From assembly GCA_035649275.1 (NCBI GenBank), contig DASRJW010000101.1:39473-103472 (forward strand): 64,000 nucleotides of DNA, in the 5' to 3' direction. The translations under genes and the position numbers were made by a program. The DNA is from Candidatus Krumholzibacteriia bacterium (lineage in GTDB: Bacteria; Krumholzibacteriota; Krumholzibacteriia; G020349025). The notes under the pieces were generated by a model, which saw only the letters and a list, made by a program, of their open reading frames with translations, searched no databases and was not told where the DNA came from. Shown here one piece after another: positions 1-63,300 of this stretch. Numbering within the stretch: position 1 is the stretch's first letter; every line of letters begins with the position of its first letter.

Positions 1-12
1 CTCTCGTGTACC

Positions 13-33266: not shown

Positions 33267-33272
33267 TCTTTC

Positions 33273-33878: not shown

Positions 33879-33922
33879 CAGTATTTCCCAGCCTCAGGCG
33901 ACGTCAGAGTCACTGCGGCGCC

Positions 33923-34110: not shown

Positions 34111-34230
34111 CAAGCCCAGAATGATGGTCTCCTTCTTTTCACGCTCCCCTCCCGGACCGCCGCTGCCGGCACGGGCGTGACGAAGGCGCTATCATGAAAG
34201 GCTGCGCCGGCGAAGGGCGAGGGCGAGGCG

Positions 34231-34881: not shown

Positions 34882-34882
34882 C

Positions 34883-36247: not shown

Positions 36248-36262
36248 TCCAAGGGTCACCGC

Positions 36263-38899: not shown

Positions 38900-40235
38900 G
38901 GCTGATGCCGGCGAAACCGGGGCGGATGATCCCGGTGCGCTTCTGCCCGTTGGTCTCCGATTGGATGATCTCGACGTCGGAGATGGTGTAGATGGCGCCC
39001 AGGTACACCCGGGGGGCGAGGGCATAGCGCAACTTGCCAGTGATCGAGATACCCGCATCGGTCTCGCCGATGGTGTTGAAGGCGGCGTAGCCGATGAGCG
39101 CGGCACCGCCGACGGGACCGATCTCGTAGTCCAGTCCGGCGTTGAGCGAGCCCCCGTTGACCGCGGGCGCGTCGCCGGCGCTGAAGGCGGCGAAGGCCAT
39201 TTCGTTCAGCAACAGCAAGTGCCAGAGCTTCTGATTGAAGGAGAAGTACAAGCCTGGCTGGGTGCGGGGGTTCCCCAGGGGATCACGCCCACCGAAGAAG
39301 GCGACCGGACCGCCTTCCGGCAGGAGCTCGAAGTTCCCTGGCTCGTAGCTGGTGTTGTAGCCCTCGTAACCCGCGCCGAGCATGGTCACTTCCTGCCCCA
39401 AGGCCCAGGACGCCGGCGCCGGATCCAGGGCGATCTCGCGGTCCACCGGCACGGGTTTGCGCTCGACCCGTCCGCTGGCGGCGAGCGAGGCCTCGTCGGT
39501 GATTCGCCGCGGCGGGTAGGTGTCGTGCGGTTCCTTGGCTCCCGCCGCCAGGAGCGGCAGGGTGTTCTCCCCGGGCATGCTCGCCGGGCCGGTGACCGGT
39601 GGCGGCACCCCTGCACCCAGGCTCTGCTTCGCCACCCGCTCGCGCAGCCGGCGCTCGTAGGCCTGGACGACGGGAGTCGTGACCTGCAAAGCGACGGCCG
39701 TGTCCGCCGTGGCGATCTCAGCGACGACGGCGCTCAGGTCGCGCTTGCGAACGTTCGGGAACACGGCGACGTTCTCTTCCGGATGCTGCACATCGAAGGG
39801 CCCGTACTCGGGGACGCCGCCGGGATACTTGTCGCCCTGGTTGAGGACGAGGAAGGGGCGCCAGTAGTCGCGCTTGAAGCCCTCTTCCGTGGCGTCGGTG
39901 CACAGGAAGTAGAGCTGCCGGGCAACGTCTTGCACGTCGTGCCGGTTCACGTACACCTGGAGCAGGTTCGAGGAGCCGGGGACGTTGCTGAAGGGGATCG
40001 ATTCCCGCAGCTTCTTGTAGCGCTCGACGCGAGCGTTCAAGTCGTCGACGCGGGCTTTTTCTCCCTTGTACTCGATCCGGCGCCGCTCCAGCTCCTCGCG
40101 CTGGCGCTGGATCTCGTCGGGGTTGGGCTGCGGCTGCTGGGCCCACACGACCGCCGCGGTGAGCCAGGGAAGTGCGCAGAGGAGCGCCGGGAGCGCCCGC
40201 CCCGGAAGCTGCTCCAGTGTGCGGCGTTCGCGCAT
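38886..40235 (-). CDS. secreted hypothetical protein with N-terminal coiled coil
   Basis: ATG 40235 MRERRTLEQLPGRALPALLCALPWLTAAVVWAQ signal peptide; EIQRQREELERRRIEYKGEKARVDDLNARVERYKKL coiled coil; Gly-rich beta-rich C-terminus. Confidence 0.5.
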   Translation of the reverse strand: MRERRTLEQLPGRALPALLCALPWLTAAVVWAQQPQPNPDEIQRQREELERRRIEYKGEKARVDDLNARVERYKKLRESIPFSNVPGSSNLLQVYVNRHDVQDVARQLYFLCTDATEEGFKRDYWRPFLVLNQGDKYPGGVPEYGPFDVQHPEENVAVFPNVRKRDLSAVVAEIATADTAVALQVTTPVVQAYERRLRERVAKQSLGAGVPPPVTGPASMPGENTLPLLAAGAKEPHDTYPPRRITDEASLAASGRVERKPVPVDREIALDPAPASWALGQEVTMLGAGYEGYNTSYEPGNFELLPEGGPVAFFGGRDPLGNPRTQPGLYFSFNQKLWHLLLLNEMAFAAFSAGDAPAVNGGSLNAGLDYEIGPVGGAALIGYAAFNTIGETDAGISITGKLRYALAPRVYLGAIYTISDVEIIQSETNGQKRTGIIRPGFAGISLTVR

Positions 40236-40522
40236 CGAGAGACGACCTCCGCGGGCGGAAGTTCTTCCGATCACGGCCATGGCGTGCAGGCGATGTGCCC
40301 CCCGGCGCAGCAAGGCGGGGTGGGCGGCGACCGAGCGGGGCCATGGTAGCACACCACCGGCGCTGCCCAGCCGGCACCGCTGCTCTCGGGCCGGGGCGGA
40401 TCCGGTTGCAAGGAAACGCATCTTCCCGGGCGGCGCAAGCCCCATCGCGCCCGCTGGTGCCCGCCCGGCTCCGCCACTTCGGCCCGAAGCATGGAGCCCC
40501 GGACACCGCCGCAACGATGCCG

Positions 40523-42592
40523 CTATGCCGACTCCCGCGCTGGGCTCAAGACCGCCTTTTCCAAGGCCTGCCGTACCTGGTCCGCGCGGGTGACCGGGGC
40601 CAGACAGACATGCTCGCGGCAGACGTAGACGGCGGGCTTGTCGCCCACGAGGCTGCGGCCCTGGAGGAGCGCGAGCTCAGGGGCGGAGCCTGCGTCCGGC
40701 CACCCCGCCACGACCTTGTTCGGAATGTAGGGGGCGAAGACGGCGCGCACCAAGGCGGCGGCCTCGTCGCCTCGGCCGGCCACGGCGACCTCGCACGCAG
40801 GCCCCAGGTACAGATCGAGGGCGCAGAGCATTTCCCCCATGGCGGTGCTGGCTTGCCGCAGCTCCATGCCTTGAGCGCGCAGGTTGCGCTCCGCCCTTTC
40901 CCGCCAGCGCTCCTCGCCGGTCAGCAGGCCGAGTCGGAGCAGGTTCCCGGTGTGCACCGAGCCGCCGGAAGGTGTCGAGGTGTCCAGGGAATTGCGCGCT
41001 GCCGCCGGCAGCTTCTCGTGCTGGCTCCCGGTGTAACGCCAGCCTCCGGCACCATCATCGAACTCGGCGTCCAGGCGCGCGCTCCATTCCTGCGCCAGTT
41101 CGAGCCAGCGCGGTGCGAAGCTCGCTTCGTAAAGATCGAGGAAAGCAGCGATCATGCACGCCCAGTCGTCGAGGAAACCGGGGCCGGAGGTGCGGCCCTG
41201 CCGCAGGGTGCGAAAGGGGCCTTGCGGGCCGTGGCGCAGAATCAGCTCGGCGGCGGCTTCGGCGCGGGCCCGATACTCCGGCAGCCGCAACACGGCATGC
41301 GCCTGGGCGTAGGCGCGGATCATGAGGCCGTTCCAAGCGGCGACGACCTTGTCGTCCAGTCCCGGTCGGACGCGGCGCGCGCGGGCCGCCAAGAGCTCGC
41401 GCCGGCCGGCCTCGACGACATTCTCCAGCGCTGCCTCCGTGATCCCGAGCTCGGCGGCGACGAAAGAGGCAGCCCGCGGCACCCATAGGATGTTGGTGTG
41501 CGCCTCGAAGTTTCCCGACCCCGAGACGCCGAAGTAAGTGCAGAGCACCCGCGCGGTCTCGGGGCCGCAGGCCGCCTCGATTTCCGCTGGGGTCCAGACG
41601 TAATACTTGCCTTCGGCGCCTTCGCTGTCGGCGTCCAGGGCGCTGTAGAAGCCGCCGTCGGGGCCGGTCATTTCACGGCTCACCCAGTCGAGGATGCGGG
41701 TGCAGACGTCGCGGAAGAACGGCTCGCCGCTCACCTGGAACGCTTCCAAGTAGGCCCGTGCGAGCAGGGCGTTGTCGTAGAGCATCTTCTCGAAGTGCGG
41801 CACGAGCCAGCGCGCGTCGGTGGCGTAGCGATGGAAACCGCCCCCGAGCTGGTCGTGGATGCCGCCGGCCGCCATGCGGCGCAGCGTCTCCAAGGCCATG
41901 GAGGTGGCGTTCGAGTCGCCGCTCCGCCTGCCGTAACGGAGCAGGAAGGACACATCCATGCTGTGCGGGAACTTCGGCGCGCCGCCGAAGCCGCCATGCG
42001 CCGGATCGTAGAGCCGTTCCAGAATGGCGAAAGCGCCGCGGAGGATGTCGCCATCCGGGGTCTCCGCCTCTGCCGGCGGGCGGGACGCTTGCAGCGCCGA
42101 CACCACCTGCTGCGCCGTGCGTGCCACATCGCCGCGCCGCTCCTTGTAGGCGTCGGCCACCAGCTGTAGCACGGTCTTGAAGCCCGGCATGCCATGCCGC
42201 GGTCCGGGAGGGAAGTAGGTGCCGGCGAAGAACGGCTCGAGTTGGGGGGTCAAGAACACGCTCATGGGCCAGCCGCCGTGCCCGCCGGTGAAGAGTTGCA
42301 CCGCCTGCATGTAGATGTCGTCGATGTCGGGGCGCTCCTCCCGGTCCACCTTGATGTTGATGAAGAGCGCGTTCATGAGTGTCGCCGTCTCCGTATCGGC
42401 GAACGACTCGTGCTCCATCACGTGACACCAATGACAGGACGAGTAGCCCACGCTGAGGAAGATGGGCTTGTCCTCCTGGCGTGACCGCGCCAGGGCGGCT
42501 TCCGACCAGGGATACCAGTCCACCGGGTCGTAGGCATGCTGCAAGAGGTAGGGACTCGTGGCCTGAAGGAGCCGGTTCGTAGGCCGTTCCAT
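40523..42592 (-). CDS. thioredoxin-domain protein (DUF255/YyaL, SPATA20-like; N-acylglucosamine-epimerase-like C-domain)
   Basis: [39 protein letters not shown]...FGGAPKFPH; highly characteristic. Confidence 0.88.
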
Positions 42593-47689: not shown

Positions 47690-48997
47690 TCACCGCACCC
47701 CGAAGGACGTGGCCAGCATCAGACCACGCTCGCCGGTGAAGGTGCGGTGGTGCGACTGCAGCGCCACGTCGAAGGAGAAACCGCTGGCGCCGATACCGAA
47801 GCCGCCGCTCCACTGCAAACGGGCGTCGTAGTCGGTCATGACGCCGCCGCGCATCGCCAGCGGCCCGGCTCGGCGCTCGGCGCCGAAGTGCACCAGGGTG
47901 CCGAGACGGCTCGAGGTGACGTCTGCTGCCAGCGCCGTGCTTCTTCCCATCCAGCCGATGTTGAAGGTGCCCTGGGTGGGCAAGCTCTGCACGAAGGGGT
48001 CGTTGCGAGCGACGATGGTGTTCTGCACCTGGCCCGTCGCCTGATCCAGGACGGATTCCCACACCAGGGTGTGGCCCCAGTGGACGCGCGCCGCCAGATC
48101 GCGCACGCCGACGCCGACGTCCACGGCGCCCGCACGGTAGCCGAGGCCGAGATCGATGCCGTAGCCGTTGCCGATCTGGCCGAACTCGGCGTAGCGAATG
48201 CGGGCGTTGTAATCGGCGCGCAGCGAGTTCTGCGCCCCGAAGATCGTGTCTGCCGTGCTCAGGGCGAGCTGCGAGGTGGCGTGGGACATCCCGAGGCCGA
48301 GCAGGTATTTGGCACCGGCGCCGGCGTAGAGTCCGTTGCCTCGCACGTCCGTCCGCAGCGGCGCGCTCCAGGCACAGTGCACCGAGAACCCCGCCAGCGT
48401 CTCGCCGCGAGCGTCGAGCTCGTAGGTGGAATGGGGCTGTAGGGGCTCGCCTCGGGCCAGGACGGCGTAGAAGGCGTCGTCGAAGGCGAGCTCTCCTTCG
48501 AGGTAGAGAAGCGGCGAGAGATAGGTGCGGGTGTGTCCGACCGCCGTACCGACCGTGGGGACGGACCACACTCCACCCACCTCGAACGGCTTTTGCGGCA
48601 GCAAGGCTTCCGCGTCCTCGAAGAGGATGGAGAACTCGTTGCGTGACACCCGGAGAGTGATGTCGCCGTCCAGGTCCGAAGGCCGGCTCAGTTCGAGGTA
48701 GAAAGGCGGGTTCATCGCCAGGTTGGCCAAGCGGGTGACGGAGAAGTTCTCGTTCTGCGGATCGAAGGTCGGCATGTCCTGGGTCAGCTGCACCAAGCCG
48801 AGCGGCAGGGGAACGACCACGCCCGTCACCCCCGGTCGGGCCGGGACACTGTGGTAGGCCACGTTCAGCGCCAGCAGCTCCTGGCATCCCGGAATGACGA
48901 CGCCGCCCATGGCGAGCCGGCGGGCGTCGACGGTGAAACCATGGCAGGGAGGTGCGGTGCAGACGAGCAACCAAGCAGCGCCGATGGCGAGGCGCAT
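47690..48997 (-). CDS. secreted outer-membrane beta-barrel-like hypothetical protein
   Basis: MRLAIGAAWLLVCTAPPCHG signal peptide; alternating Gly/aromatic beta-strand pattern to C-terminus; 30 nt upstream of lipoprotein gene (operon). Confidence 0.5.
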   Translation of the reverse strand: MRLAIGAAWLLVCTAPPCHGFTVDARRLAMGGVVIPGCQELLALNVAYHSVPARPGVTGVVVPLPLGLVQLTQDMPTFDPQNENFSVTRLANLAMNPPFYLELSRPSDLDGDITLRVSRNEFSILFEDAEALLPQKPFEVGGVWSVPTVGTAVGHTRTYLSPLLYLEGELAFDDAFYAVLARGEPLQPHSTYELDARGETLAGFSVHCAWSAPLRTDVRGNGLYAGAGAKYLLGLGMSHATSQLALSTADTIFGAQNSLRADYNARIRYAEFGQIGNGYGIDLGLGYRAGAVDVGVGVRDLAARVHWGHTLVWESVLDQATGQVQNTIVARNDPFVQSLPTQGTFNIGWMGRSTALAADVTSSRLGTLVHFGAERRAGPLAMRGGVMTDYDARLQWSGGFGIGASGFSFDVALQSHHRTFTGERGLMLATSFGVR

Positions 48998-49174
48998 CGT
49001 TCTGCGTCCACGTCGCATCCTGTCCGTCCCAGGTCGGAGGCAGGAGCCGCCGCGACACGACCACGGAGTCGCTGGAAGCTTCGTCCGCTATTGGGGCAAT
49101 GCACATGCCAAGGTCTGGTGATGCCTCGTGCGGCCCTGTGCTACCTTGGGACGGATCCACCTGGAGGCGGCGCC

Positions 49175-51529: not shown

Positions 51530-51772
51530 TGGCACCGTTGCATCCCCTGACGGTGCCGTCTTCCCCTGACTTGCTCTCGTCCCCTCGGCGGGATCGCTAC
51601 CCCCTGGGTCGCGCCACGTGGGTTCACCGGTAAAGGCCTCCGCGCCAGCCCCGCGGGCCCTCTCCAGCGCACTCCGGGCCGCTGGCTTCGGAACTGGTCC
51701 GGAACTCGCATTGGCCCTACACTGCACTTCGGGTCCTGCCGAGTGAGGAGGCGCTTCGTGCGAGCCACTGCC

Positions 51773-52732
51773 ATGCGTCCCCGCGGCTTCTGTGCCGGCG
51801 TGGATCGAGCCATCGAGATCGTGGATCTGGCGCTGGATCTCTTTCCGCCTCCGCTCTATGTTCGCAAGGAGATCGTCCACAACCGCGCCGTCGTCGAAGG
51901 GTTCCGCACCCGTGGGGTCATCTTCGTCGATTCCCTCGACGAGGTCCCTGAAGGGCGCGTGGTCATCTTCAGCGCCCATGGTGTCTCACCCAGCGTGCGC
52001 GAGGATGCCCAGCGCCGGCGGCTACGTGTCATCGATGCCACCTGCCCCTTGGTGACGAAGGTGCATCTCGAGGTGCGCCGGTTCGTCAAACAAGGCTACG
52101 AGATCTTTCTCATCGGCCATGCGGGTCACGACGAGGTCCTGGGCACAACCGGAGAGGCGCCGGAGCGCATTCATTTGGTGGGCAGCGTCGAGGAGGCCCA
52201 GCGTCTGCAGCTGCCGCGCCATGACAAGCTCGTCTATCTCACGCAGACGACGCTCAGCGTCGATGAGACCCGCGACATCGTCGCCGCCCTACAAGCGCGT
52301 TTCCCTCGGCTCACCGGCCCCCCGAAGGACGACATCTGCTATGCCACCCAGAATCGCCAGGAAGCGGTGAAAGCCCTCGTGGGCGACGGGGCCCAAGTGG
52401 TCCTCGTGCTCGGTTCGGAATCGAGTTCGAATTCCAAGCGCTTGTGCGAGGTGGCCGAAGAAAACGGGGCGCGCGCTTACCTCGTCGATGGAGTGGCCGA
52501 CATCGACCCCTCCTGGCTCGCGGGAGTCGAGCACGTCGGCGTCACTGCCGGTGCATCGGCGCCCGAGCACCTGGTGCAAGAGGTGCTTGCCTGGCTGGCG
52601 GCGCAGGGGGCACAGATCGAGGAGCGCGAGCTCATTCGCGAAGACGTCCAGTTCGGCCTGCCACCGGAGCTCGCCGCCAGCCGCCGTGGCAACGCCCGTG
52701 CCACGGGTGCAGGGACCACACGGGCCCGTTGA
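51773..52732 (+). CDS. ispH: 4-hydroxy-3-methylbut-2-enyl diphosphate reductase
   Basis: MRPRGFCAGVDRAIEIV...ATCPLVTKVH...DICYATQNRQ...; three cluster Cys contexts of IspH/LytB. Confidence 0.9.
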   Translation: MRPRGFCAGVDRAIEIVDLALDLFPPPLYVRKEIVHNRAVVEGFRTRGVIFVDSLDEVPEGRVVIFSAHGVSPSVREDAQRRRLRVIDATCPLVTKVHLEVRRFVKQGYEIFLIGHAGHDEVLGTTGEAPERIHLVGSVEEAQRLQLPRHDKLVYLTQTTLSVDETRDIVAALQARFPRLTGPPKDDICYATQNRQEAVKALVGDGAQVVLVLGSESSSNSKRLCEVAEENGARAYLVDGVADIDPSWLAGVEHVGVTAGASAPEHLVQEVLAWLAAQGAQIEERELIREDVQFGLPPELAASRRGNARATGAGTTRAR

Positions 52733-53466: not shown

Positions 53467-55905
53467 CTAGGCTTTCTCTGCCTGTTCCACGGCTTCGCGG
53501 AGCCGGCGGAGCCGGGTGTCGCGCTCGCGGACGAAGCGCTCGATGCCCTGCAGGAGCCAGCGCGGCGACAGGTGCGCTTCCTCGACGATTTCCTCGACAG
53601 AGCCACCGGTGCGCCAGCGGTCGTCCCAGTCGGGCGTCATGGCGTACTCCGCTGCGATGCGGTGCGGGATCCAGTCCGTGAGGGTGCGCCGGCCACGGTT
53701 GGCGACCACCATGGAGTCCATCCACTCGCTGGCGGAGAGGACGCTCTCCTGGTAGCGCTTGGACTCGGACCAGAACAGTTGCGGCGAGATGGCCGCGACG
53801 ACCTTGACGTTGAGCTTCTCCTGCGCCAGGTCCGGGAGGATGCGTACCAAGTTCGCCGTCGTCGACGTGCCGCTCACGATGACCACACCGCGCTGCGGCT
53901 GCCCCGGATGGTAGTCACGCAGCACATAGGCGCCGCGCGCTGCGGCGGTGTACGACGGGATCCCCAGAGCGGCGCGGTCGGGGATCTCGATGGCAGGCCG
54001 CGTCAGATGCAGCGCCAGGATGGGGGCGCCATGGCGGAGGCCCGCGGCGATGGCCACGGGCACCTCGTTGTGTTCCCACGGGTGCAGGTCGACGACCTGC
54101 ATGTCCGGGAAGAGCTGGGTCACGTACGGTTCGTAGATGCCGAAGTGCGTGCGCGAGTCTTCCGCCGTCTCGGGACCGGAGTGGCCGGCCACCCAGAGCA
54201 CCTTGCCGAGGCGGATCTGGCAATCCTGGACGACCTGACTGAACAAACGCATGGGGCCGTACTTGAGATAGACGAAGGATCCGTAGGTCGAGCAGGCGCT
54301 CATGAAGCCCGACCATTCTTCGAACGGCCGCTCCGATAGGTTGGTGGAAGCGATGCCGCAAGCGATGCCGGCGTTGGTGAACTCGGTGATTTCTTGCGGC
54401 AAGAGCACGCCCTCGGGATTCGATGTGCGCTCGTACCAGCCGTAGCCGGCGAAGCTGCCAAAACCCTTGGCGAAACCGGCGATGTTGGTGGAATCGGCGA
54501 GGTCCGCCGACATGGCCAGGAACAGCGGGCGCCCGTATTTCGCCTGCGACCAGGCGTTCACCCACGCGCCCCACTTGGCGAGGGCCGCCCGGTTCGGCGC
54601 CTTGGCACCGGGCTTCTCGAACAGCTCCTGGGGATAGCGCTCGTAGTCCGTGAGCTCCGGATCCGTCGCCGGGTTGCCGGGCCGGGGGAAGCGGAAGCTG
54701 GGGATGGACTCGGGCACCGAATCTCCCAGCTCCACCAGGCGGTCGGCCATGTAGCGCACGCACTCCACGTCGTCGTGCAACACCTTCATGACCACCGTGA
54801 AGTTGTGCACCACTTGCTGGCGCCAGGCCTCGGCGCTGGCGGGCACGGGGTCGTTCATCCCGGCGAACTCCACGCCGTACTTGGCGGCGAACTCTTGCCG
54901 TCCCTTCCAGTACAGCTCGCTGTTGGGCTTGTGCGGCGTGCCGTGGGACTTGGCGTCGAGCACGCCGTAGCCCCGCCCCTTGCGGGTACGGAAGTAGCAG
55001 ACGCTGGGGACATGCTGCGGGTTGTCGCCGTGCACGGTCTCGAGCAGACCGCGGGTCAACTCCGGCCAGTCCATGCCCTGCTCGACGCCGATGACGCGCC
55101 AGCCGCTGGCGCCGAACCAGTCCGCCGGCGAACCGTGCACGACGCTGCTGGCGGGGCGCTCGTCGATGCCGAAGTCGTTCCAGTCCACGCAGTACACCAG
55201 GTTGTCCAGCCCCAGGCCCCAGGCGGAGTTGCGGGTCTCGTGGGCGGCGCCCGGGGTCAGGCCGCCTTCGCCCTCCAGGGCGAAGACGCGGACGCCCTCG
55301 GCACCGGCGCGCTTGAGCGCCATGGCGATACCGGCGGCCGGCGGGGACCCGTGCCCCGAAGGACCGGTGTTCGCCTTGACGAAGAGCGTCTTGCCCTCCA
55401 TCTCGGCGTGGCCCGGGAGGCCGCGGTTGCGGCGGAAGAGCAGCAGGTCCTCCCAGTGGAGAGCGAACTCCTCGGACTTCGGGATGCGATAGCGCGCCTC
55501 GCCGGTCTCCCGGTGGAGGACGCGGAGCGACTCGGAAAGGACGGCGAGCATGGAGTACAGCAAGGGGGTGCAGTGCCCGGCCACGAGGACGAAACGGTCC
55601 CCGAAGCGCTTCTCCGGATGGCGCAGGTCCCAGCGCATGACGCCGCCCAGGAGCAGGACCAGCATCGCATGCACCTTCGAGCGCGAACCGCCGGGATGAC
55701 CGCTCTGGCGGTAGTTGAGCATCATGTCGATGCACTGGTCGACGACGTCCTTGATCTTCTCCCAGTGCTGGAAATGCTGTTCCTGCTCGCGCACCAGCGC
55801 GTCGACGCGGGACGAGGAGGTCGTCGAAGGCGCCACGAGGGCTCCTTTCTTCGGTTTCTCGCGCGCACGGGGACCGACCCGGCGCGATCGCAGCGATGAT
55901 GCCAA
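53467..55905 (-). CDS. transketolase-family TPP-dependent enzyme (long 812-aa form)
   Basis: YRQSGHPGGSRS (TK SGHPG motif), TPP-binding GDGxxxE-like region, pyrimidine-binding and C-terminal domains; about 150 aa longer than canonical TK. Confidence 0.75.
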   Translation of the reverse strand: MASSLRSRRVGPRAREKPKKGALVAPSTTSSSRVDALVREQEQHFQHWEKIKDVVDQCIDMMLNYRQSGHPGGSRSKVHAMLVLLLGGVMRWDLRHPEKRFGDRFVLVAGHCTPLLYSMLAVLSESLRVLHRETGEARYRIPKSEEFALHWEDLLLFRRNRGLPGHAEMEGKTLFVKANTGPSGHGSPPAAGIAMALKRAGAEGVRVFALEGEGGLTPGAAHETRNSAWGLGLDNLVYCVDWNDFGIDERPASSVVHGSPADWFGASGWRVIGVEQGMDWPELTRGLLETVHGDNPQHVPSVCYFRTRKGRGYGVLDAKSHGTPHKPNSELYWKGRQEFAAKYGVEFAGMNDPVPASAEAWRQQVVHNFTVVMKVLHDDVECVRYMADRLVELGDSVPESIPSFRFPRPGNPATDPELTDYERYPQELFEKPGAKAPNRAALAKWGAWVNAWSQAKYGRPLFLAMSADLADSTNIAGFAKGFGSFAGYGWYERTSNPEGVLLPQEITEFTNAGIACGIASTNLSERPFEEWSGFMSACSTYGSFVYLKYGPMRLFSQVVQDCQIRLGKVLWVAGHSGPETAEDSRTHFGIYEPYVTQLFPDMQVVDLHPWEHNEVPVAIAAGLRHGAPILALHLTRPAIEIPDRAALGIPSYTAAARGAYVLRDYHPGQPQRGVVIVSGTSTTANLVRILPDLAQEKLNVKVVAAISPQLFWSESKRYQESVLSASEWMDSMVVANRGRRTLTDWIPHRIAAEYAMTPDWDDRWRTGGSVEEIVEEAHLSPRWLLQGIERFVRERDTRLRRLREAVEQAEKA

Positions 55906-56090: not shown

Positions 56091-58058
56091 ATGATCGACC
56101 GAGTCTTCACGCACTCGACGGGCATCCAGTCCATCTGCCCGACGTCCACCGGACTGTGGATCGCCCACCAGGGCGGTCTTTCCTTCCTCGATCCCGAAAG
56201 CGGCCGTCAGGCCAAGTGGACCACCGCCGACGGCATCCCCGCCCATCCGGTCCTGCACGTGGCGCAGGAAGGGAGTCGCATCGCCGTGGCCACTCCCAAC
56301 GGCCTGGCCTGGAGCGACGACGCGGCGCGGTTGCTGCAAGACACCTTCGCCGGCGCGCCGCGACCGCGGTGGCAGCGAGCCCTAGCGCACGCCCGCGGCA
56401 CCGGCGCCTATCTGAACGGCATCGCTTTCGTCCACGGCCGACTGCACGCCACCACCGGCGGCGGGCGGATCTACCGGGAGGGGGCCGGCGGTTTCGAACT
56501 CCTAGAACTGCCCTTGCCACAGGCGCGGTTGCTGCATCTCCTGGCCCTCGAGTGCCAGCCGGAGCGCCTGCGCCTCCTGGTGATCTCGAACAACTGCGGC
56601 ATCCTGCTCTTGGCCACGGGCGCGGCCGAGGAACCGTCCCTCTACCAGTGGAGCGAGCAGGAAGGCCTGACCTCGCGCTACGCCACCACCGTGATCCAGG
56701 CGGGCGAGTACGTCGTCGTCGGCGTGCATGGGTGCGCGCACGTGGCACGGAGGCGCGATCTTCTGCAACGCCCGGCCGAACTCCGGCGCTGGGGTCGGAT
56801 CCAGTTCGGCGACCCCCAAGGGCCGGTGGAGCACGGGCGGGTGCATGCGGTCTGCGCCCACGGCGAGCATCTCTATCTCGGCACCGCCACCGGACTGTAC
56901 CGCCTGCCTCTCTCCGACCTCGAGGCTGCCGCCAGCGGGGAGGTGGAGGCAGAGCCGCTCGACGAAGTTCCGGTGCGCCACCTGGCGAGCCATCGTGGCG
57001 AGCTCTGGTGCGTGCAACACAGCAGCCTGTGCCGACTCGTGGAAGGGGCCGGTGCCGCCACGCCGCGCGAGGTGCTCCCGGACGGGGGAGCGAGCGGCCG
57101 CGGCGCGCTGCGCTTCCGTCGTCGCCCCGAGGCCGCCGCTTTCGCGCCACGGATCACCACTTTCTCCCGCCGTTGGCGCAACCTGCCGGAATCGCGCTGG
57201 CGGGCTTCCGCCGCCGAGCCCGAATCAGCGCGCATCGCCTGCCTGGCAGCGACGCCGCGCGGTCTGGCCTGCGGTGGCGATGGCGGTCGCGTCCTCCACT
57301 TCGCCGACGAACACTGGTCCTGCGAGAGCGTGGTGCGGCAGCAGCGCTCCCCCGAGGTCCACGCCCTGGCGCATGATCCCGAGGCCGGCACGCTGTGGTG
57401 CGCCACCCGGCACGGCCTCTTCGGCCGCGACTTCCGCGGGCGCTGGCTGCGCGACCTGGAGTTTCCCGGGCGTGCGGTGCACCAGCTCGTGTCCTGGCAG
57501 GGAATGTTGCTGGCCCTCGGCAGCGCCGGGCTGCACGTGCGTGTGCAAGGCGCCTGGAGCGAGGTGGCGTTTCGCGGCGAGAACCCGTCGTTCTTCCTCG
57601 CCGGTGCCGGTGCCCCCGGGCTCGTCCTCGCCGCCCGGCCCGGGGCGAGCTACTACCTCTGGTCCCCGGCGGCGCCGCGCCCGGAACGCTGGGACCTGGC
57701 CGTGGGGCGTGCGAATTGCTTGGCCTGGGACGGGCTCGAGCGGCTCTGGATCGGCACCGATCATGGACTCGTTCGCTGGCAAGGCAATCGCCTCGAGAGC
57801 TACGCCTGGGAAGGCGAAGCGGAGAACCACATCACCGCGGTGCTGGTCCATGCAGGCAATCTCCACGTGGGGTCGCACGCCGGCGCCTGGGTCGCGGCGA
57901 GCGCCAGTCTGGATCCTGCACGGGGCACCGCGCTCGAGTCCCGCGGCAAGAGGCTAGGACTGCTCGACGGTCTTCCGCACGCTCACGTCACCAGCATGCT
58001 GGTGCACGACGGGCGTGTCTGGGTGGGAACCCAAGGCGGTCTGGCCGCTCTGGCGTGA
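56091..58058 (+). CDS. beta-propeller repeat protein (two-component-regulator-propeller-like), hypothetical
   Basis: repeated ~45-aa units with conserved W/G/hydrophobic pattern (GLWIAHQGGL, GLYRL, TLWCATRHGLFG, RLWIGTDHGLVRW, RVWVGTQGGLAALA). Confidence 0.5.
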   Translation: MIDRVFTHSTGIQSICPTSTGLWIAHQGGLSFLDPESGRQAKWTTADGIPAHPVLHVAQEGSRIAVATPNGLAWSDDAARLLQDTFAGAPRPRWQRALAHARGTGAYLNGIAFVHGRLHATTGGGRIYREGAGGFELLELPLPQARLLHLLALECQPERLRLLVISNNCGILLLATGAAEEPSLYQWSEQEGLTSRYATTVIQAGEYVVVGVHGCAHVARRRDLLQRPAELRRWGRIQFGDPQGPVEHGRVHAVCAHGEHLYLGTATGLYRLPLSDLEAAASGEVEAEPLDEVPVRHLASHRGELWCVQHSSLCRLVEGAGAATPREVLPDGGASGRGALRFRRRPEAAAFAPRITTFSRRWRNLPESRWRASAAEPESARIACLAATPRGLACGGDGGRVLHFADEHWSCESVVRQQRSPEVHALAHDPEAGTLWCATRHGLFGRDFRGRWLRDLEFPGRAVHQLVSWQGMLLALGSAGLHVRVQGAWSEVAFRGENPSFFLAGAGAPGLVLAARPGASYYLWSPAAPRPERWDLAVGRANCLAWDGLERLWIGTDHGLVRWQGNRLESYAWEGEAENHITAVLVHAGNLHVGSHAGAWVAASASLDPARGTALESRGKRLGLLDGLPHAHVTSMLVHDGRVWVGTQGGLAALA

Positions 58059-58101
58059 ACGCGGCGTGGTTTCGCCGCGCCACCAAGAACCCGGGACCTC
58101 G

Positions 58102-59511
58102 ATGCGCACCCTCCTCGGCTTGATACCCGTGGCGATCTTCCTGGGGTTGACGGCCCATCTGTGCTTGCAGGTGGGCCTGCAGCCGGACGACGCCGGCTAC
58201 ACGGCGCTCAGGGTGGCGACCAATTTCCGCAGCGGCGAGGGTCTGGCGTTCAACCCCGGAGAGAAGCGCGATCTGGCCGACAGCCCGATCTGGGTCGGGG
58301 TGCTCTCGCTGCTCTCGTTCTCTTCCCGCGCCCCCTTCTGGGTCATGATCCTCGGCATCTTCCTCGGCGTTGCCGGGCTGCTCAGCGTTCTCGACGGGCC
58401 GCGCGACGCTCTCGTCGGCGCCGGCGCCGCCCTCTTCCTCGCTCTCGATCGGCTCGTGGTGGCGCACACGATTTCCGGTGCCAGCGGACCGCTCGCGGCG
58501 CTCTATTTAGTGCTCTTGATTCCGATCCTGCGCACCGGCAAGGGCGACACGGGCTCGGACCTCGCCCTCGCGGCGTGGGCGGCGCTCGCTGCTTGTGTGC
58601 GCACGGACCTCGTGCTGGTGGCGCTCCCGGTGGCGCTCGGCGCCGGGTTGCGCGAACCGCGGCGCCTGCGGGCCTGGCTGCCCTTGGCCGGCGCCATCGC
58701 CGGGGCCGTGCTGTGCCTCGGTTGGCGCTGGGCGCACTACGGCCAGCATCCTGCCACGTGGGAACCGTGGCCACCCTCGGCTACCAGCTTGTATCGCGCC
58801 GCCAGTCTGGTGCTCGACCTGGTGCTGCGCCGTCCGGTGATGGTCCTCGCTCTCGCCATCTTGGTGTCCGAGTGGCTGCATCGCCGCCTCTGGCTCGGAC
58901 GCCGTCTCGGACTCGCCTGGGGGTTGCTGGCGCTGGCGCTGTTCTCCATGGCGCCCGCGCGCGGCGCGGAAGTGCAGCGCTTGCTCGCGCCCGTCCTTCC
59001 CCTCGGCTACCTGCTCGCCGTCGAAGCGGTGTGGCGCCGGACGCGCACGCGGCCGGCCCTGGTGGCGGCGCTGCTCCTGGTCGTGGCCCAGCCGAGTTGG
59101 ACCGCCGGGGGCCGCACCGCGGCTCCGGAAGTGGACGTCGCTTACGAGCGCATCGGTCGCTGGCTGGGAGCGCATGCGGTGCCCGAAGCCATCGTCGGCG
59201 CTGCCCGTGTCGGCGCCCTCGGTTACCACAGCGGCCTGCGGGTCGAAGACGTGCAAGGACGCATCAGCCCGCGGGTGGCGGCGGCGCGACAGATGACTCC
59301 CACCGGCCCGGACGATACCGACGCGGCCTTCGGCTTCGTCTTCGAGCTGGAGCCGGATCTCCTGGTTCTGCTTCCCGGCGACCCCGTGCCTTCGGCACGC
59401 ACCTACGTGCCGAACGACGATGCGCTCCCTGCAGTCATCCGCGGGCCGTTTCGTCTCTATCGCTGGGCGGGGAGCTCGGTGTGGCAGGGCGCGGCGCGGG
59501 ACGGGGGCTGA
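58102..59511 (+). CDS. polytopic integral membrane protein, possibly GT-C-like glycosyltransferase
   Basis: ATG 58102 MRTLLGLIPVAIFLGL; ~10 TM helices then soluble C-domain; first loop RVATNFRSGEGLAFNPGEKRDLADSPIW. Confidence 0.5.
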   Translation: MRTLLGLIPVAIFLGLTAHLCLQVGLQPDDAGYTALRVATNFRSGEGLAFNPGEKRDLADSPIWVGVLSLLSFSSRAPFWVMILGIFLGVAGLLSVLDGPRDALVGAGAALFLALDRLVVAHTISGASGPLAALYLVLLIPILRTGKGDTGSDLALAAWAALAACVRTDLVLVALPVALGAGLREPRRLRAWLPLAGAIAGAVLCLGWRWAHYGQHPATWEPWPPSATSLYRAASLVLDLVLRRPVMVLALAILVSEWLHRRLWLGRRLGLAWGLLALALFSMAPARGAEVQRLLAPVLPLGYLLAVEAVWRRTRTRPALVAALLLVVAQPSWTAGGRTAAPEVDVAYERIGRWLGAHAVPEAIVGAARVGALGYHSGLRVEDVQGRISPRVAAARQMTPTGPDDTDAAFGFVFELEPDLLVLLPGDPVPSARTYVPNDDALPAVIRGPFRLYRWAGSSVWQGAARDGG

Positions 59512-61149: not shown

Positions 61150-61275
61150 GCTCACCACCTTGGCGGGACCCTGTCATGCTACATGCTGGCAGGGGCAAAA
61201 AAAAGGATGAAGGGTCTCCCCTCCATCCCTTGGAATGCAGCGATGCGAGCGCCGGTTCCGGGCGCCCCGCGCTTC

Positions 61276-63300
61276 TCAGCCGCAGCCGCAGCCGGTGCCG
61301 CAACCTACGCCGCTAGGTGCCTGGACTGCCGTCGCTTCGGTGTGGCCGTTGCCATTCCCATTCCCATTGCCGTTGCCGCCCAGCTTCAGGGTCACTTGCT
61401 GCGGGCGGCGCTGCGGCACCCGGGTGGTCACCGGATCGTCGTACATGGGCAGCGCCAGATCCTTGCCGCTGGCGTAGACGCCGTGCTTGCCGTGCTGCTT
61501 GTACCACTCGGCGGTGGTGGCGTTCATGTGCATGTGCTCCACGATCTGCCGCCAGCCCACGCCGGTGTTGTAGGCACAGAACGAGATCTCCCCTTGCTGC
61601 GTGCCGTAGGGGATGATGCACATCTCGGTGCGGCGGAAATCGTAGTTGAACAGATCTTGGAACCACATGCCGGCCACGAAGAGCACCCGCCAATCGTAGT
61701 CCGGCTGATCGTCGAAGCCCGCGTGACCGCCGGACTGCTTGTCGAATTTCTTGAGGAAATCCTTCAGCGACAGCGGTGCCCGCTGGGCGTCGAAGTTGCG
61801 CAGCAGCGCCAGGGCCAGCTGCGCCTTGGTGAGGGCGCGGCCGCGGTTGGCGTCGGTGATGGTGCGCACGTCGGCGAGGAGGCGCTCCAGGTTGAGGAAT
61901 TCCGACACCGGGACCATCTGCTTGGTCTTGGTGTTCACGAACAGAATGGTGCCGATGCCGCAGTTCGGATGGCAGCCGCACTTGAGCGAACCCCAGTCGG
62001 CCCCGGCCCCCTTCATCAGGTCCACCATGTCGGAGAACGGCCCCAGACCGGAGAGGGGATACCAGTCCACCAGGGGATCGGTGGCGCCGGTCTGGTTCTT
62101 CACGTCGTGGGCCAGGTGCGACAGGGTGTAGCGCATGCGCTCGCGGTCGGCATCGCTGATGTCCTCGTCGCGGCCGGTGAAGCTCACGGGCTGGAAGGAC
62201 ACGACGCTGATCTTGTCGGAGTTCTCGATGGCGAAGTCGATGATGGGTCCCACCTGGTCGTCGTTGATGGTCTTGACGATGGTGACCACGAGGACGACGT
62301 CGATGTCCGCCTTGGCCAGGTTGTCGATGGCCCGCAGCTTGACGTCGAAGAGGTTGCCGATCTTGCGATGGGCGTTGCTGGCGTTGTCGGTGCCGTCGAA
62401 CTGCAGGTACGCCAGGCGCATCCCCGCTTCCCGGGCCCGGTAGGCGAAATCCAGGTCCTGGGCGAAGCGGATGCCATTGGTCGCCGCCTGGATGCTGAAG
62501 TAGCCCACCTTTTTCGCGTAGGCCACGGACTCCAGGAAGATGGGGCTCACCGTGGGCTCGCCACCGGAGAACTGCACTGACATCTGCCGCCGCGGCTGGA
62601 TGGAGAGCGAGTCGTCCAGGATCTTCTGCACGTCGGCGAAGGACAGCTCGTGCACGTAGCCCACCTGGTTGGCGTCCATGAAGCAGGGGTCGCACATCAT
62701 GTTGCAGCGGTTGGTGAGATCGATGGTGAGCACGGCGCCGCGGCCGTACTGGATGGACGAGGTGCCGTGCTGGCGCAACTCCGTGGTCGGCGACTTGAAG
62801 TCCCGGCCCGGGTAGAGGCGTTCGATGCGCGACAGGAACGCCGGGTCGATGGCCATGACGTCCTCGCAACGGCCGTGCTTGGGGCAGTCCTTCACCATCA
62901 GCACCTTGCCGTCGCGCTCGATGACCGTGGCCTTGATCTCGCCTGGATTGCCTTCCACCAGCACCCGCGGCTCGACGCGGTCGGCGAGGATCTCGGCGCG
63001 CACTTCCTTCACGCACTGCGGGCAAAGCGAGTCGGTCTCGCGCGGCCAACCGAGCTTGGGGAAGCTGCGTTCCCAGCTGCGCGGCAACGCTGCGGGCGCC
63101 CAGCGCGGCTGGAAGGGCTTGCCGGGCTTGAGCCGGTTGTTGGCGAATTGAAACACCGGCCACAGTGCTTCGGCGCTCTTGCTCAGAGCTGCGTCCACGG
63201 CTCGCACGACATTCCTCCTTCTTCGGAGCCCGTCGAGCGCCCCTCGTGGGCGACCTCTCGCCGCGGGCGCGACCGGGCTCTCTGCCTCCAATGCCCGCAT
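61276..63300 (-). CDS. radical SAM enzyme with rubredoxin-like Cys4 knuckle, auxiliary Cys cluster and (GN)6 + Cys-rich C-terminal tail; tetraether/membrane-spanning-lipid-synthase-like architecture
   Basis: ATG 63300 (GGAG upstream); CPQC...CPKHGRC, radical SAM CNMMCDPC (Cx3Cx2C) with SGGEP, later CGCHPNC and C...C; ends GNGNGNGNGNGHTEATAVQAPSGVGCGTGCGCG; N-terminal 220 codons of ORF 61276..63960 rejected. Confidence 0.65.
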   Translation of the reverse strand: MRALEAESPVAPAARGRPRGALDGLRRRRNVVRAVDAALSKSAEALWPVFQFANNRLKPGKPFQPRWAPAALPRSWERSFPKLGWPRETDSLCPQCVKEVRAEILADRVEPRVLVEGNPGEIKATVIERDGKVLMVKDCPKHGRCEDVMAIDPAFLSRIERLYPGRDFKSPTTELRQHGTSSIQYGRGAVLTIDLTNRCNMMCDPCFMDANQVGYVHELSFADVQKILDDSLSIQPRRQMSVQFSGGEPTVSPIFLESVAYAKKVGYFSIQAATNGIRFAQDLDFAYRAREAGMRLAYLQFDGTDNASNAHRKIGNLFDVKLRAIDNLAKADIDVVLVVTIVKTINDDQVGPIIDFAIENSDKISVVSFQPVSFTGRDEDISDADRERMRYTLSHLAHDVKNQTGATDPLVDWYPLSGLGPFSDMVDLMKGAGADWGSLKCGCHPNCGIGTILFVNTKTKQMVPVSEFLNLERLLADVRTITDANRGRALTKAQLALALLRNFDAQRAPLSLKDFLKKFDKQSGGHAGFDDQPDYDWRVLFVAGMWFQDLFNYDFRRTEMCIIPYGTQQGEISFCAYNTGVGWRQIVEHMHMNATTAEWYKQHGKHGVYASGKDLALPMYDDPVTTRVPQRRPQQVTLKLGGNGNGNGNGNGHTEATAVQAPSGVGCGTGCGCG
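61345..61380. repeat. hexanucleotide tandem repeat (GGNAAY)6 encoding (Gly-Asn)6
   Basis: gccgttgccattcccattcccattgccgttgccgcc on plus strand inside the radical SAM CDS 3-prime end. Confidence 0.7.

What the first reader, a model, noticed from the sequence alone, without database searches (positions are those of the whole stretch)
61276..63300. Large radical SAM enzyme with rubredoxin-like knuckle and a unique (GN)6-CGTGCGCG tail, in a membrane/glycosyl locus - candidate bacterial Tes/GDGT-MAS/Mss-like lipid synthase
The 674-aa protein combines three Cys-based elements.
- A Cys4 motif (CPQC-x33-CPKHGRC) typical of rubredoxin-type mononuclear Fe sites.
- A canonical Cx3Cx2C radical SAM cluster (CNMMCDPC) with a SGGEP glycine-rich SAM motif.
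- Additional Cys groups (CGCHPNC and C...C) suitable for auxiliary [4Fe-4S] clusters.

This cofactor set (radical SAM cluster, auxiliary clusters and a rubredoxin-like iron) is what has been described for archaeal tetraether lipid synthase (GDGT-MAS/Tes). Bacterial homologues (Tes-like, Mss) are implicated in membrane-spanning lipid formation.

The gene sits between a secreted TPR protein, a GT-C-like polytopic membrane protein, a beta-propeller protein and a glycosyltransferase. That neighbourhood is consistent with envelope-lipid chemistry.

The C-terminus is unlike any family I can place. It ends in a perfect (Gly-Asn)6 tract followed by GHTEATAVQAPSGVGCGTGCGCG. At the DNA level both are simple-sequence repeats, which may point to length variation or a metal-binding tail.
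Basis: partly seen in the sequence, partly recalled or inferred. Interest (0 to 1): 0.7.

Follow-up and report, generated by a model that had tools for sequence, protein, structure and literature searches.

The report
Bacterial Tes-like lipid synthase, cysteine tail
This gene encodes a bacterial relative of the archaeal enzyme that joins two lipid tails into membrane-spanning lipids; it belongs to a large, already catalogued but never tested bacterial group, and its only unusual feature is a short conserved cysteine-rich tail of unknown role.

Summary
The ORF is real. It lies on the minus strand with its stop at 61276-61278. The true start is most likely GTG 63207 (643 aa, AAGGAGG 6 nt upstream), not ATG 63300.

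It is an unambiguous homologue of the tetraether lipid synthase GDGT-MAS/Tes (PDB 7TOL E=1e-66; AlphaFold model against 7TOM/7TOL, TM 0.80-0.81). The rubredoxin-type site (C,C,C,H), the radical SAM Cx3Cx2C, the SAM-lid residues and the catalytic [Fe4S4]C ligands (three Cys plus Met) are all invariant.

It fails two Tes criteria. All three [Fe4S4]N cysteines are absent, and it scores 340.9 bits against NCBI's 450-bit Tes cut-off. These traits define a large bacterial clade (at least 597 species genomes; the best 80 are mostly Acidobacteriota, Polyangia and Gemmatimonadota), which also carries an invariant CGCHxxC motif. Bacterial Tes homologues are already published as brGDGT-synthase candidates but remain untested.

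The tail is not an artefact and not unique. The CG[STV]GCGC[GHS] end is invariant among close orthologues and recurs sporadically in distant lineages (about 4-11%). The Gly-Asn linker (five Asn, not six) drifts.

No gene neighbourhood is conserved across the clade, and the gene has its own terminator. Verdict: a new member of a known kind, with modest interest.

The parts
61276..63207 (-). Coding sequence of the Tes-like radical SAM enzyme (643 aa plus TGA stop), from the most likely start, GTG 63207
   Evidence: ORF and translation. Identical to database protein P0001, 643 aa. Homologues align from residue 1-2.
63214..63220 (-). Shine-Dalgarno-like AAGGAGG, 6 nt upstream of GTG 63207
   Evidence: Read directly from the sequence.
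63208..63300 (-).
   Evidence: No counterpart in any homologue; the database call starts at 63207.
63043..63207 (-). Clade-specific conserved N-terminal extension (aa 1-55, predicted helix 2-25), absent from GDGT-MAS
   Evidence: Invariant W16, W36, A37, P50, G53, P55, R56 in alignment A1. pLDDT 83-91. The GDGT-MAS knuckle starts at C9 (PMC9433317).
62875..63024 (-). Rubredoxin-type mononuclear Fe knuckle: C62, C65 ... C108, H111 (Cx2C-x42-Cx2H)
   Evidence: Invariant in 60 and 120 homologues. Pfam PF23545. Corresponds to C9, C12, C33, H36 of GDGT-MAS (PMC9433317).
62728..62847 (-). Cys-free segment (aa 121-160) in the position of the GDGT-MAS [Fe4S4]N domain; the cluster ligands are lost
   Evidence: GDGT-MAS C73, C77 and C80 have no Cys counterpart in 0 of 120 close homologues and 0 of 83 genome loci. 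Low pLDDT at 138-155.
62683..62706 (-). Radical SAM cluster motif C168-x3-C172-x2-C175 (CNMMCDPC)
   Evidence: Invariant. Pfam PF04055.
62554..62568 (-). SGGEP SAM-binding glycine-rich motif (S214-P218)
   Evidence: Invariant in A1.
62170..62193 (-). SAM-lid loop FQPVSFTGR (Q339, S342, R346), corresponding to Q268, S271, R275 of GDGT-MAS
   Evidence: Alignment to 7TOL. Invariant in A1. Role described in PMC9433317.
61960..61980 (-). C410-G-C412-H413-P-N-C416. C416 corresponds to an [Fe4S4]C ligand of GDGT-MAS. C410 and C412 are clade-specific invariant extra Cys
61576..61668 (-). Remaining [Fe4S4]C ligands: M514 (equivalent to the labile Met439), C530, C544
   Evidence: Invariant. Alignment to 7TOL. 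PMC9433317.
61345..61380 (-). Low-complexity G(GN)5G linker (aa 610-621)
   Evidence: TRF period 6, 5.5 copies, 85% matches. Varies by substitution and by plus or minus one unit among members at 90% identity or more. pLDDT below 40.
61279..61302 (-). C-terminal Cys3 end, C636-G-T-G-C640-G-C642-G
   Evidence: Invariant in the 90% clusters. The consensus [GS]CG[STV]GCGC[GHS] recurs in P0001-P0009, P0039, P0074, P0091, P0135, P0159, P0269 and L023.
61202..61231 (-). Intrinsic-terminator-like hairpin plus a run of T, 45 nt after the stop
   Evidence: A comparable hairpin plus T-run follows the orthologue in L004.

Best explanation
The gene encodes a cytoplasmic, membrane-facing radical SAM enzyme of the GDGT-MAS/Tes family. 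It belongs to a distinct bacterial clade of about 620 aa.

The mechanism below is inferred by homology and is not shown here.
1. The Cx3Cx2C [4Fe-4S] cluster cleaves SAM to give a 5'-deoxyadenosyl radical.
2. That radical abstracts hydrogen from the terminal carbon of a glycerolipid alkyl or acyl chain held in a hydrophobic pocket.
3. The substrate radical is parked on a sulfide of the C-terminal [Fe4S4] cluster, which is ligated by C416, C530, C544 and the labile M514.
4. A second SAM-derived radical on a second chain attacks that carbon and forms a C(sp3)-C(sp3) bond.
5. The product is a membrane-spanning lipid of the iso-diabolic-acid or brGDGT type.

The surface rubredoxin-type Fe (C62, C65, C108, H111) is retained as the probable electron entry point. 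The second surface cluster of the archaeal enzyme, [Fe4S4]N, has been lost in the whole clade.

The C-terminal CGTGCGCG end sits on a disordered Gly-Asn linker and is a selectively maintained add-on found in a minority of clade members. It is most plausibly a flexible metal- or Fe-S-binding arm, but its role is unknown.

The confidence of 0.55 refers to the lipid-coupling function. Membership of the wider GDGT-MAS/Tes homology family is near certain (about 0.97).
For: Shown here:
- Family homology: 7TOL E=1e-66; NCBIfam Tes is the best model at 340.9 bits; fold TM 0.80-0.81 to 7TOM/7TOL, with every other PDB hit covering only the radical SAM core.
- All catalytic elements described for GDGT-MAS in PMC9433317 are invariant across 60-120 homologues. 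These are the radical SAM Cys triad, SGGEP, the lid residues Q339/S342/R346, three [Fe4S4]C Cys, the labile Met, and the Cx2C...Cx2H knuckle.
- Clade distribution: at least 597 species genomes; the best 80 are mostly Acidobacteriota (including Solibacteraceae, Bryobacterales, Pyrinomonadaceae and Terriglobia), Polyangia and Gemmatimonadota. Acidobacteriota are the main suspected brGDGT producers (PMC8941075, PMC10087280).
- One deltaproteobacterial orthologue sits next to a CDP-alcohol phosphatidyltransferase.
- The tail Cys end is invariant while the linker drifts, and it recurs in separate branches and at 48% identity.

Inferred: the lipid substrate, the product, and the role of the tail.
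Against: - No bacterial Tes homologue has been shown to make a membrane-spanning lipid (PMC11868695; review PMC13459092).
- Only 3 of 14 iso-diabolic-acid-producing Acidobacteria had a Tes homologue under strict criteria, and the bacterial synthase that has been demonstrated is the only remotely related Mss (PMC13159169).
- The protein is below NCBI's Tes equivalog cut-off and lacks the [Fe4S4]N ligands.
- No ether-lipid or fatty-acid gene is linked to it in this window, and no neighbour is conserved across the clade.
- No lipid data exist for Krumholzibacteria.
- About 90% of clade members lack the tail, so it cannot be essential to the clade's chemistry.
Confidence: 0.55

Rival explanations
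1. The fold is the same but the job is different. The clade would use the Tes scaffold for another radical reaction, either on a hydrophobic substrate (for example a different cross-link, cyclisation or C-S chemistry on lipids or polyketide-like chains) or on a non-lipid substrate, rather than tail-to-tail coupling that yields membrane-spanning lipids.
For: - The score is below the Tes equivalog cut-off (340.9 against 450). [Fe4S4]N-containing relatives score 432-645.
- The clade has lost [Fe4S4]N, gained the invariant C410 and C412, and gained conserved N- and C-terminal extensions.
- It is present in aerobic Polyangia, for which I know of no reports of brGDGTs (the lipid statement is my own knowledge).
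- Tes homologues are missing from most iso-diabolic-acid-producing Acidobacteria (PMC13159169).
- A second Tes paralogue, MA_1114, did not make GDGT (PMC8941075).
Against: - Every residue tied to the GDGT-MAS coupling mechanism is invariant, including the unusual labile Met ligand of the catalytic cluster.
- The full-length fold matches only GDGT-MAS.
Confidence: 0.3
2. The tail is functionless low-complexity sequence, a product of slippage in a GC-rich genome. It would be retained by chance or phylogenetic inertia, or be an assembly artefact.
For: - Weak hexanucleotide periodicity at both tail segments.
- The tail is predicted to be disordered.
- Most clade members lack the Cys end.
- Many members carry Gly/Asn/His-rich C-terminal tracts without Cys.
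Against: - An artefact is excluded. The identical protein occurs on independent contigs from different samples, and the tail is present in 11 cluster members.
- The Cys end is invariant while the adjacent linker changes.
- The same CGxGCGC(H) end occurs at 48-66% identity, in separate NJ branches and in an acidobacterial MAG.
- The DNA repeats are imperfect: GGC/GGG and AAC/AAT alternate.
Confidence: 0.12
3. It is a RiPP/SPASM-type peptide maturase or a TrsS-type radical SAM (seleno)protein. The Cys-rich tail would be an intramolecular substrate, or part of a selenocysteine-containing extension.
For: - NCBIfam TrsS is the second-best model at 217.5 bits.
- There are weak hits to SkfB, PqqE and other SPASM maturases over the radical SAM core.
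- The gene ends in TGA.
Against: - TrsS is far below its cut-off of 490, and the SPASM hits cover only the core (about aa 190-390).
- There is no in-frame conservation after the TGA in the window, L004 or L023.
- A 'truncated-looking' homologue (P0015...SCGG) ends in TAG and is followed by unrelated sequence.
- The distance from the last Cys to the stop varies (G, GS, SS, H, HH, AH).
Confidence: 0.03

Closest known systems
GDGT-MAS (MJ0619, PDB 7TOL/7TOM) and archaeal Tes (MA_1486, Maeo_0574), tetraether lipid synthase
   Same: - Same overall fold (TM 0.80-0.81).
- Sequence homology over about 480 residues.
- Rubredoxin-type Cx2C...Cx2H iron site.
- Cx3Cx2C radical SAM cluster.
- SAM-lid Q/S/R loop.
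- C-terminal catalytic [Fe4S4] ligands, including the labile Met (PMC9433317).
   Different: - No [Fe4S4]N cysteines.
- About 55 aa of conserved N-terminal extension.
- An extra invariant C410-G-C412 pair.
- About 60-100 aa of C-terminal extension ending in an L-x-[VIL] motif.
- In this protein, a further linker plus the CGTGCGCG end.
- Below the NCBIfam Tes cut-off.
- The host is a bacterium, so the likely substrates are fatty-acyl or alkyl chains rather than phytanyl chains.
Bacterial Tes homologues proposed as brGDGT synthases (Zeng et al. 2022, PMC8941075; Halamka et al. 2022, PMC10087280; Black Sea MAG survey, PMC11868695)
   Same: This protein falls in that published category. It is a homologue of archaeal Tes at E below 1e-50, and it is found in the same phyla: Acidobacteriota, Deltaproteobacteria/Myxococcota and FCB-group candidate phyla.
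   Different: - The papers read here treat bacterial homologues as one set. In the passages I searched I found no distinction between the [Fe4S4]N-containing type (432-645 bits) and the [Fe4S4]N-less CGCH clade (299-348 bits; the tail-bearing P0135 scores 413.8), and no mention of the Cys tail.
- I found no mention of Krumholzibacteria in the paper I searched for it.
Mss, membrane-spanning lipid synthase of Thermotoga and Thermoanaerobacter (PMC13159169)
   Same: It is a radical SAM enzyme proposed to use the same cluster-assisted C(sp3)-C(sp3) coupling on lipid tails (PMC13459092). It is the only bacterial enzyme with demonstrated membrane-spanning lipid synthase activity.
   Different: It is described as only remotely related to Tes (PMC13159169). 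No Mss sequence was available here for a direct comparison.
A-type Fe-S carriers (IscA/SufA/ErpA), C-terminal flexible Cys-x-Cys
   Same: A Cys-Gly-Cys unit sits on a flexible C-terminal segment. In E. coli IscA, Cys-99 and Cys-101 are disordered in crystals and are implicated in binding Fe, Zn and Cu (PMC6495748). The tail here ends in C-G-C-G/H.
   Different: This is a motif-level analogy only. There is no homology, no A-type carrier fold and no third distal Cys in the same arrangement. It is a lead, not a test.

Membership tests
GDGT-MAS/Tes tetraether lipid synthase | Radical SAM Cx3Cx2C cluster motif and SAM-binding elements | tested here: met
   C168/C172/C175, SGGEP and Q339/S342/R346 are invariant.
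GDGT-MAS/Tes tetraether lipid synthase | N-terminal rubredoxin-type Fe site, Cx2C...Cx2H | tested here: met
   C62, C65, C108 and H111 are invariant. Pfam PF23545, E=2e-14.
GDGT-MAS/Tes tetraether lipid synthase | N-terminal auxiliary [Fe4S4]N cluster ligated by three Cys (C73, C77, C80) plus His | tested here: not met
   There is no Cys at the aligned positions in the window protein, in 0 of 120 close homologues and in 0 of 83 genome loci. The Cys are present in 23 of the 45 full-length representatives, all 31-41% identical to the query.
GDGT-MAS/Tes tetraether lipid synthase | C-terminal catalytic [Fe4S4]C cluster with three Cys and a labile Met | tested here: met
   C416, C530, C544 and M514 align with the GDGT-MAS ligands and are invariant.
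GDGT-MAS/Tes tetraether lipid synthase | Full-length fold of GDGT-MAS | tested here: met
   AF2 model pTM 0.83. Foldseek 7TOM E=3e-32 and 7TOL E=2.4e-31, TM (target-normalised) 0.80-0.81, over 553-563 alignment columns.
GDGT-MAS/Tes tetraether lipid synthase | Score at or above the curated NCBIfam NF045702 equivalog cut-off (450 bits) | tested here: not met
   340.9 bits. Clade relatives score 299-348, the tail-bearing P0135 scores 413.8, and [Fe4S4]N-containing relatives score 432-645.
GDGT-MAS/Tes tetraether lipid synthase | Catalyses tail-to-tail C-C coupling of lipid chains | not testable with these tools
   This needs expression and lipid analysis. No bacterial homologue has been tested, according to PMC11868695 and PMC13459092.
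Mss (bacterial membrane-spanning lipid synthase) | Sequence homology to T. maritima or T. ethanolicus Mss (E<=1e-50 and identity >=30%, as used in PMC13159169) | not tested
The literature calls Mss only remotely related to Tes.
TrsS radical SAM (seleno)protein, NF045646 | Score at or above the curated cut-off (490 bits) | tested here: not met
   217.5 bits, with the best stretch covering aa 121-406. There is no evidence for selenocysteine read-through.
SPASM/twitch RiPP maturases (SkfB, PqqE, mycofactocin maturase and others) | Full-length match including the SPASM auxiliary-cluster domain | tested here: not met
   Only the radical SAM core aligns (about aa 190-390), with scores far below the cut-offs.

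The most novel reading that the evidence does not exclude
The C-terminal Cx3CxC(H) end sits on a disordered Gly/Asn(/His)-rich tether. It could be a built-in iron- or Fe-S-binding arm, functionally comparable to the flexible C-terminal CxC of A-type carriers. In that reading it either supplies a replacement surface electron-relay site for the lost [Fe4S4]N cluster, or it loads and repairs the enzyme's own clusters. This would be a cofactor arrangement not described for any lipid-modifying radical SAM enzyme. The [Fe4S4]N-less CGCH clade that carries it would then be a mechanistically distinct bacterial membrane-spanning lipid synthase.
Probability: 0.15. Interest if true: 0.55.

Novelty: new member of a known kind. 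Interest (0 to 1): 0.33.

Why it matters
Branched GDGTs underpin widely used palaeotemperature and pH proxies, yet the enzyme that joins the two alkyl chains in most producers is still unproven. Bacterial Tes homologues are the standing candidates.

This gene adds another uncultured FCB-group lineage (Krumholzibacteria) to the carriers. The comparison made here also shows that 'bacterial Tes homologues' are not uniform:
- The clade found here in Acidobacteriota, Polyangia and Gemmatimonadota lacks one of the three Fe-S clusters of the characterised archaeal enzyme.
- It has extra invariant cysteines.
- A minority of its members carry a conserved Cys3 tail.

That matters for choosing which homologue to express and for interpreting gene-based surveys of brGDGT potential. 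It does not open a new question by itself.

Tried and rejected
1. Selenocysteine read-through. I suspected that homologues ending ...SCGG...SCGA or ...ATCH were cut at UGA. P0015 ends in TAG and is followed by unrelated sequence. Nothing is conserved in frame after the TGA of the window, L004 or L023. Rejected.

2. Tail as general compensation for the lost [Fe4S4]N. All clade members lack [Fe4S4]N, but only about 4-11% carry the tail. So it is not a general replacement, and I kept it only as a minority-variant hypothesis.

3. Conserved operon partner. I clustered all ORFs in 84 loci. No neighbour family occurs in more than 9 loci, and the recurrent ones are housekeeping genes: Ser/Thr kinase, phosphoglucomutase, SurE, PCMT, VTT-domain protein and S9 peptidase. 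The downstream proteins of about 505 aa next to P0015 and P0021 are unrelated to the window's TPR protein.

4. Lipid genes in the window. Pfam and NCBIfam scans of about 30 ORFs found no PlsA/Ger, ElbD, AGPS or GGGPS-type genes near the gene.

5. Searching the 5.8-billion-protein set with a tail-only profile, to see whether the tail occurs on other families.

6. Positions that discriminate tail-bearing from tail-less sequences. These are confounded by phylogeny, because 9 of the 12 tail-bearing sequences form one clade. Uninformative.

7. The AF2 model gave no placement for the tail (pLDDT below 40).
Full report
OBSERVATION

Several details need correcting.
- Start codon. The same protein exists in public data as P0001 (100% identity, 643 aa, 'radical SAM protein [Candidatus Krumholzibacteria bacterium]'; longest contig on record 274 kb, and the contigs read here were 242 kb and 25 kb). 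It starts at GTG 63207, which lies 6 nt after AAGGAGG. Homologues from 80 genomes align from residue 1-2 of this version, and none matches the 31 residues added by ATG 63300.
- Spacing. The CPQC-to-CPKH spacing is 42 residues, not 33.
- Repeat. The Gly-Asn tract is G(GN)5G.
- DNA repeats. TRF finds only two weak, imperfect period-6 arrays (score 38), with alternating GGC/GGG and AAC/AAT codons.

All residue numbers below use the 643-aa protein.

FAMILY

- Pfam finds Radical_SAM plus Zn_ribbon_HMPTM (PF23545). The 'HMPTM' name stems from the earlier annotation of MJ0619 as 7,8-dihydro-6-hydroxymethylpterin dimethyltransferase (my own knowledge; JGI still uses that name for some homologues). Lloyd et al. 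could not corroborate that activity.
- The best NCBIfam model is tetraether lipid synthase Tes (340.9 bits, E=1e-101), but this is below the curated 450-bit cut-off. TrsS comes next at 217.5 bits against a cut-off of 490. All other radical SAM families match only the core.
- Against PDB sequences the only strong hit is GDGT-MAS, 7TOL, at E=1e-66 over residues 122-604 of the 674-aa version.
- An AlphaFold2 model built on 60 homologues (pLDDT 76, pTM 0.83) matches 7TOM/7TOL over 553-563 alignment columns, with TM 0.80-0.81 normalised to the target. The next hits (MoaA, SkfB, viperin, NifB) cover only about 225 residues.
- Homology to GDGT-MAS/Tes is therefore secure.

COFACTOR-SITE ANATOMY

Lloyd et al. 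(PMC9433317) define four sites in GDGT-MAS:
- a rubredoxin-type Fe (C9-x2-C12-x20-C33-x2-H36);
- [Fe4S4]N (C73, C77, C80 plus His);
- the radical SAM cluster;
- the catalytic [Fe4S4]C, with three Cys and the labile Met439, on whose sulfide the substrate radical is parked.

I aligned 120 close homologues, 45 full-length 50%-identity representatives and the GDGT-MAS fragment. The results are as follows.
- C62, C65, C108 and H111 are invariant. The knuckle is therefore Cys3His, as in GDGT-MAS.
- C168, C172 and C175, the SGGEP motif and the lid residues Q339, S342 and R346 (equivalent to Q268, S271 and R275) are invariant.
- C416, C530, C544 and M514 align with the [Fe4S4]C ligands and are invariant.
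- The three [Fe4S4]N cysteines are absent from the window protein, from all 120 close homologues and from all 83 genome loci. They are present in 23 of the 45 full-length representatives, all 31-41% identical to the query and mostly about 500 aa long.
- The clade also carries invariant extra Cys C410 and C412 (CGCHxxC), a conserved N-terminal extension of about 55 aa, and a C-terminal extension.

NCBI's Tes model roughly separates the two types. [Fe4S4]N-containing relatives score 432-645 bits and clade members 299-348. One tail-bearing outlier, P0135, scores 414.

DISTRIBUTION

- The exhaustive search finds 6161 family members at E up to 0.001 (522 at E up to 1e-30) among 50%-identity representatives.
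- A pattern scan of one genome per species finds at least 597 genomes with the clade's NRCNMMC/CFMDANQ signature.
- The best 80 are Polyangia, many orders of Acidobacteriota (Vicinamibacterales, Pyrinomonadaceae, Bryobacterales, Solibacteraceae, Terriglobia, Thermoanaerobaculia), Gemmatimonadota and Eisenbacteria.
- One of them is cultured: Polyangium fumosum DSM 14668, at 63% identity.
- Members of the protein's own 90% cluster are already labelled 'tetraether lipid synthase' by JGI.

THE TAIL

- It is not an artefact. The identical protein is encoded on contigs from two samples, and all nine 640-643-aa members of its 90% cluster carry the tail.
- Within the 90% clusters the linker drifts (GNGTGNG, GSNGKGNGNGNG, GNGSGNGNGNGNG), while GCGTGCGCG is invariant.
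- The end motif [GS]-C-G-[STV]-G-C-G-C-[GHS] is shared by all orthologues at 77-89% identity (P0002-P0009). It recurs in P0039, P0074 and P0091, in P0135 (48% identity), in P0159 (with a His/Gly/Asn-rich linker), in P0269 and in an acidobacterial MAG (L023).
- In a neighbour-joining tree these sequences fall in at least four separate places.
- Frequency is about 11% of the 120 closest hits and 3 of 83 species loci, plus three degenerate versions.
- Gly/Asn/His-rich C-terminal tracts without Cys are common in the clade, for example in L041, L047, L059 and L073. All members share a short hydrophobic motif (for example RLPVV, LVQIGG and, here, TLKLGG) just before these appendages.
- AlphaFold gives the tail pLDDT below 40.
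- The pattern is strict conservation of three Cys at the extreme C-terminus on a free-drifting tether. That argues for a selected function, most simply metal or Fe-S binding.
- The nearest analogy I can cite is the flexible C-terminal Cys-99-x-Cys-101 of IscA, which binds Fe, Zn and Cu (PMC6495748). This is a motif-level lead only.
- Selenocysteine read-through was tested and rejected.

CONTEXT

- The gene is followed 45 nt downstream by a hairpin plus a run of T (61231-61202). It is preceded by a 203-nt gap after a GT4 glycosyltransferase.
- The order PMT_2/TPR, polysaccharide deacetylase, hydrolase, [Tes-like], TPR protein, 470-aa membrane protein, Reg_prop propeller, transketolase-like, IspH is conserved in a Latescibacterota genome (P0007, 77% identity). 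That genome lacks the GT4.
- Beyond this lineage nothing is conserved. Among 84 loci no neighbour family occurs in more than 9, and those that recur are housekeeping genes.
- One deltaproteobacterial orthologue is followed by a CDP-alcohol phosphatidyltransferase.
- Scans of about 30 window ORFs found no ether-lipid or membrane-spanning-lipid genes nearby.

MECHANISM AND RIVALS

Every element of the GDGT-MAS coupling machinery is invariant, including the unusual labile Met. The most likely activity is therefore SAM-dependent, cluster-assisted C(sp3)-C(sp3) coupling of two lipid chain termini. In a bacterium this would give iso-diabolic-acid or brGDGT-type membrane-spanning lipids. This is an inference.

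The literature states that bacterial Tes homologues have not been experimentally confirmed (PMC11868695; PMC13459092). Only 3 of 14 iso-diabolic-acid-producing Acidobacteria had a Tes homologue under strict criteria, and the demonstrated bacterial enzyme is Mss (PMC13159169). Solibacter usitatus, a brGDGT producer, has two Tes homologues that have been proposed for the step (PMC10087280).

My estimates:
- about 0.55 for lipid tail-to-tail coupling;
- about 0.3 for a different reaction on the same scaffold;
- small probabilities for a functionless tail or for a RiPP/TrsS-type role.

NOVELTY AND VERDICT

Bacterial Tes homologues have been a published category since 2022 (PMC8941075), and this protein is an ordinary member of its largest bacterial clade. 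Three things seem not to be described in the papers I could read: the clade-wide loss of [Fe4S4]N, the invariant CGCH motif, and the sporadic conserved Cys3 tail. These are modest architectural variations. They are useful for enzymologists choosing constructs and for gene-based brGDGT surveys.

Final scores: new member of a known kind; interest 0.33.

Noticed in passing
window 34745-38896 (+), with 31470-33893 alongside: A class-III aminotransferase (34745-36244) is followed directly by an 883-aa fusion protein. The fusion has a weak LuxE-like N-terminal part and a clear LuxC acyl-CoA reductase C-terminal domain (Pfam 1.4e-36). Next to them are an ACAD9/VLCAD-type acyl-CoA dehydrogenase and a PAP2 phosphatase. 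This could be a fatty acid to aldehyde to amine route. It lies about 22 kb from the Tes-like gene and no link was shown.
   Followed up: partly
window 53470-55905 (-) and 51551-52729 (+): An 812-aa divergent transketolase-like protein (far below every NCBIfam transketolase cut-off, with an N-terminal extension) lies near IspH/LytB. The same pair is conserved in the Latescibacterota genome CP070763.1 (L004).
   Followed up: partly
window 57958-59508 (+), 38889-40676 (-), 30081-31397 (+), 17563-19137 (-), 47693-49087 (-): Five long ORFs (439-596 aa) have no Pfam or NCBIfam match. The first looks by eye like a hydrophobic, multi-pass membrane protein; no topology prediction was run. It is conserved next to the Tes-like gene only in the Latescibacterota relative.
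   Followed up: partly
window 21604-28018 (+): An AddB-like PD-(D/E)XK nuclease (1051 aa) is followed by UvrD-type helicase ORFs. The helicase appears split across two ORFs (24458-26773 and 26777-28018), which may reflect a frameshift or a genuine split gene.
   Followed up: no
window 1-4000: G+C is about 0.64 here against about 0.68-0.72 in the rest of the window, and few high-GC3 ORFs were called there. No tRNA or Rfam family was found anywhere in the 64 kb.
   Followed up: no
L005 12120-12971 (deltaproteobacterial MAG JAANMU010000072.1): A CDP-alcohol phosphatidyltransferase gene lies immediately downstream of the Tes-like orthologue P0023, on the same strand. This is the only direct lipid-gene linkage seen in any locus.
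   Followed up: no
Clade-wide, e.g. L041 (Eisenbacteria), L059, L073, P0024, P0159: Many clade members end in long Gly/Asn/His-rich low-complexity tracts (for example GNGHGDHGGNGNGHGNGNGNGNGHG) after a conserved short hydrophobic motif (LVQIGG, RLPVV), with or without terminal Cys. This looks like a family-wide variable C-terminal appendage of unknown role.
   Followed up: partly
window 34198-34878 (+): The second radical SAM gene in the window is an ordinary QueE (TIGR04349, 301.6 bits, above its cut-off) and is unrelated to the finding.
   Followed up: yes
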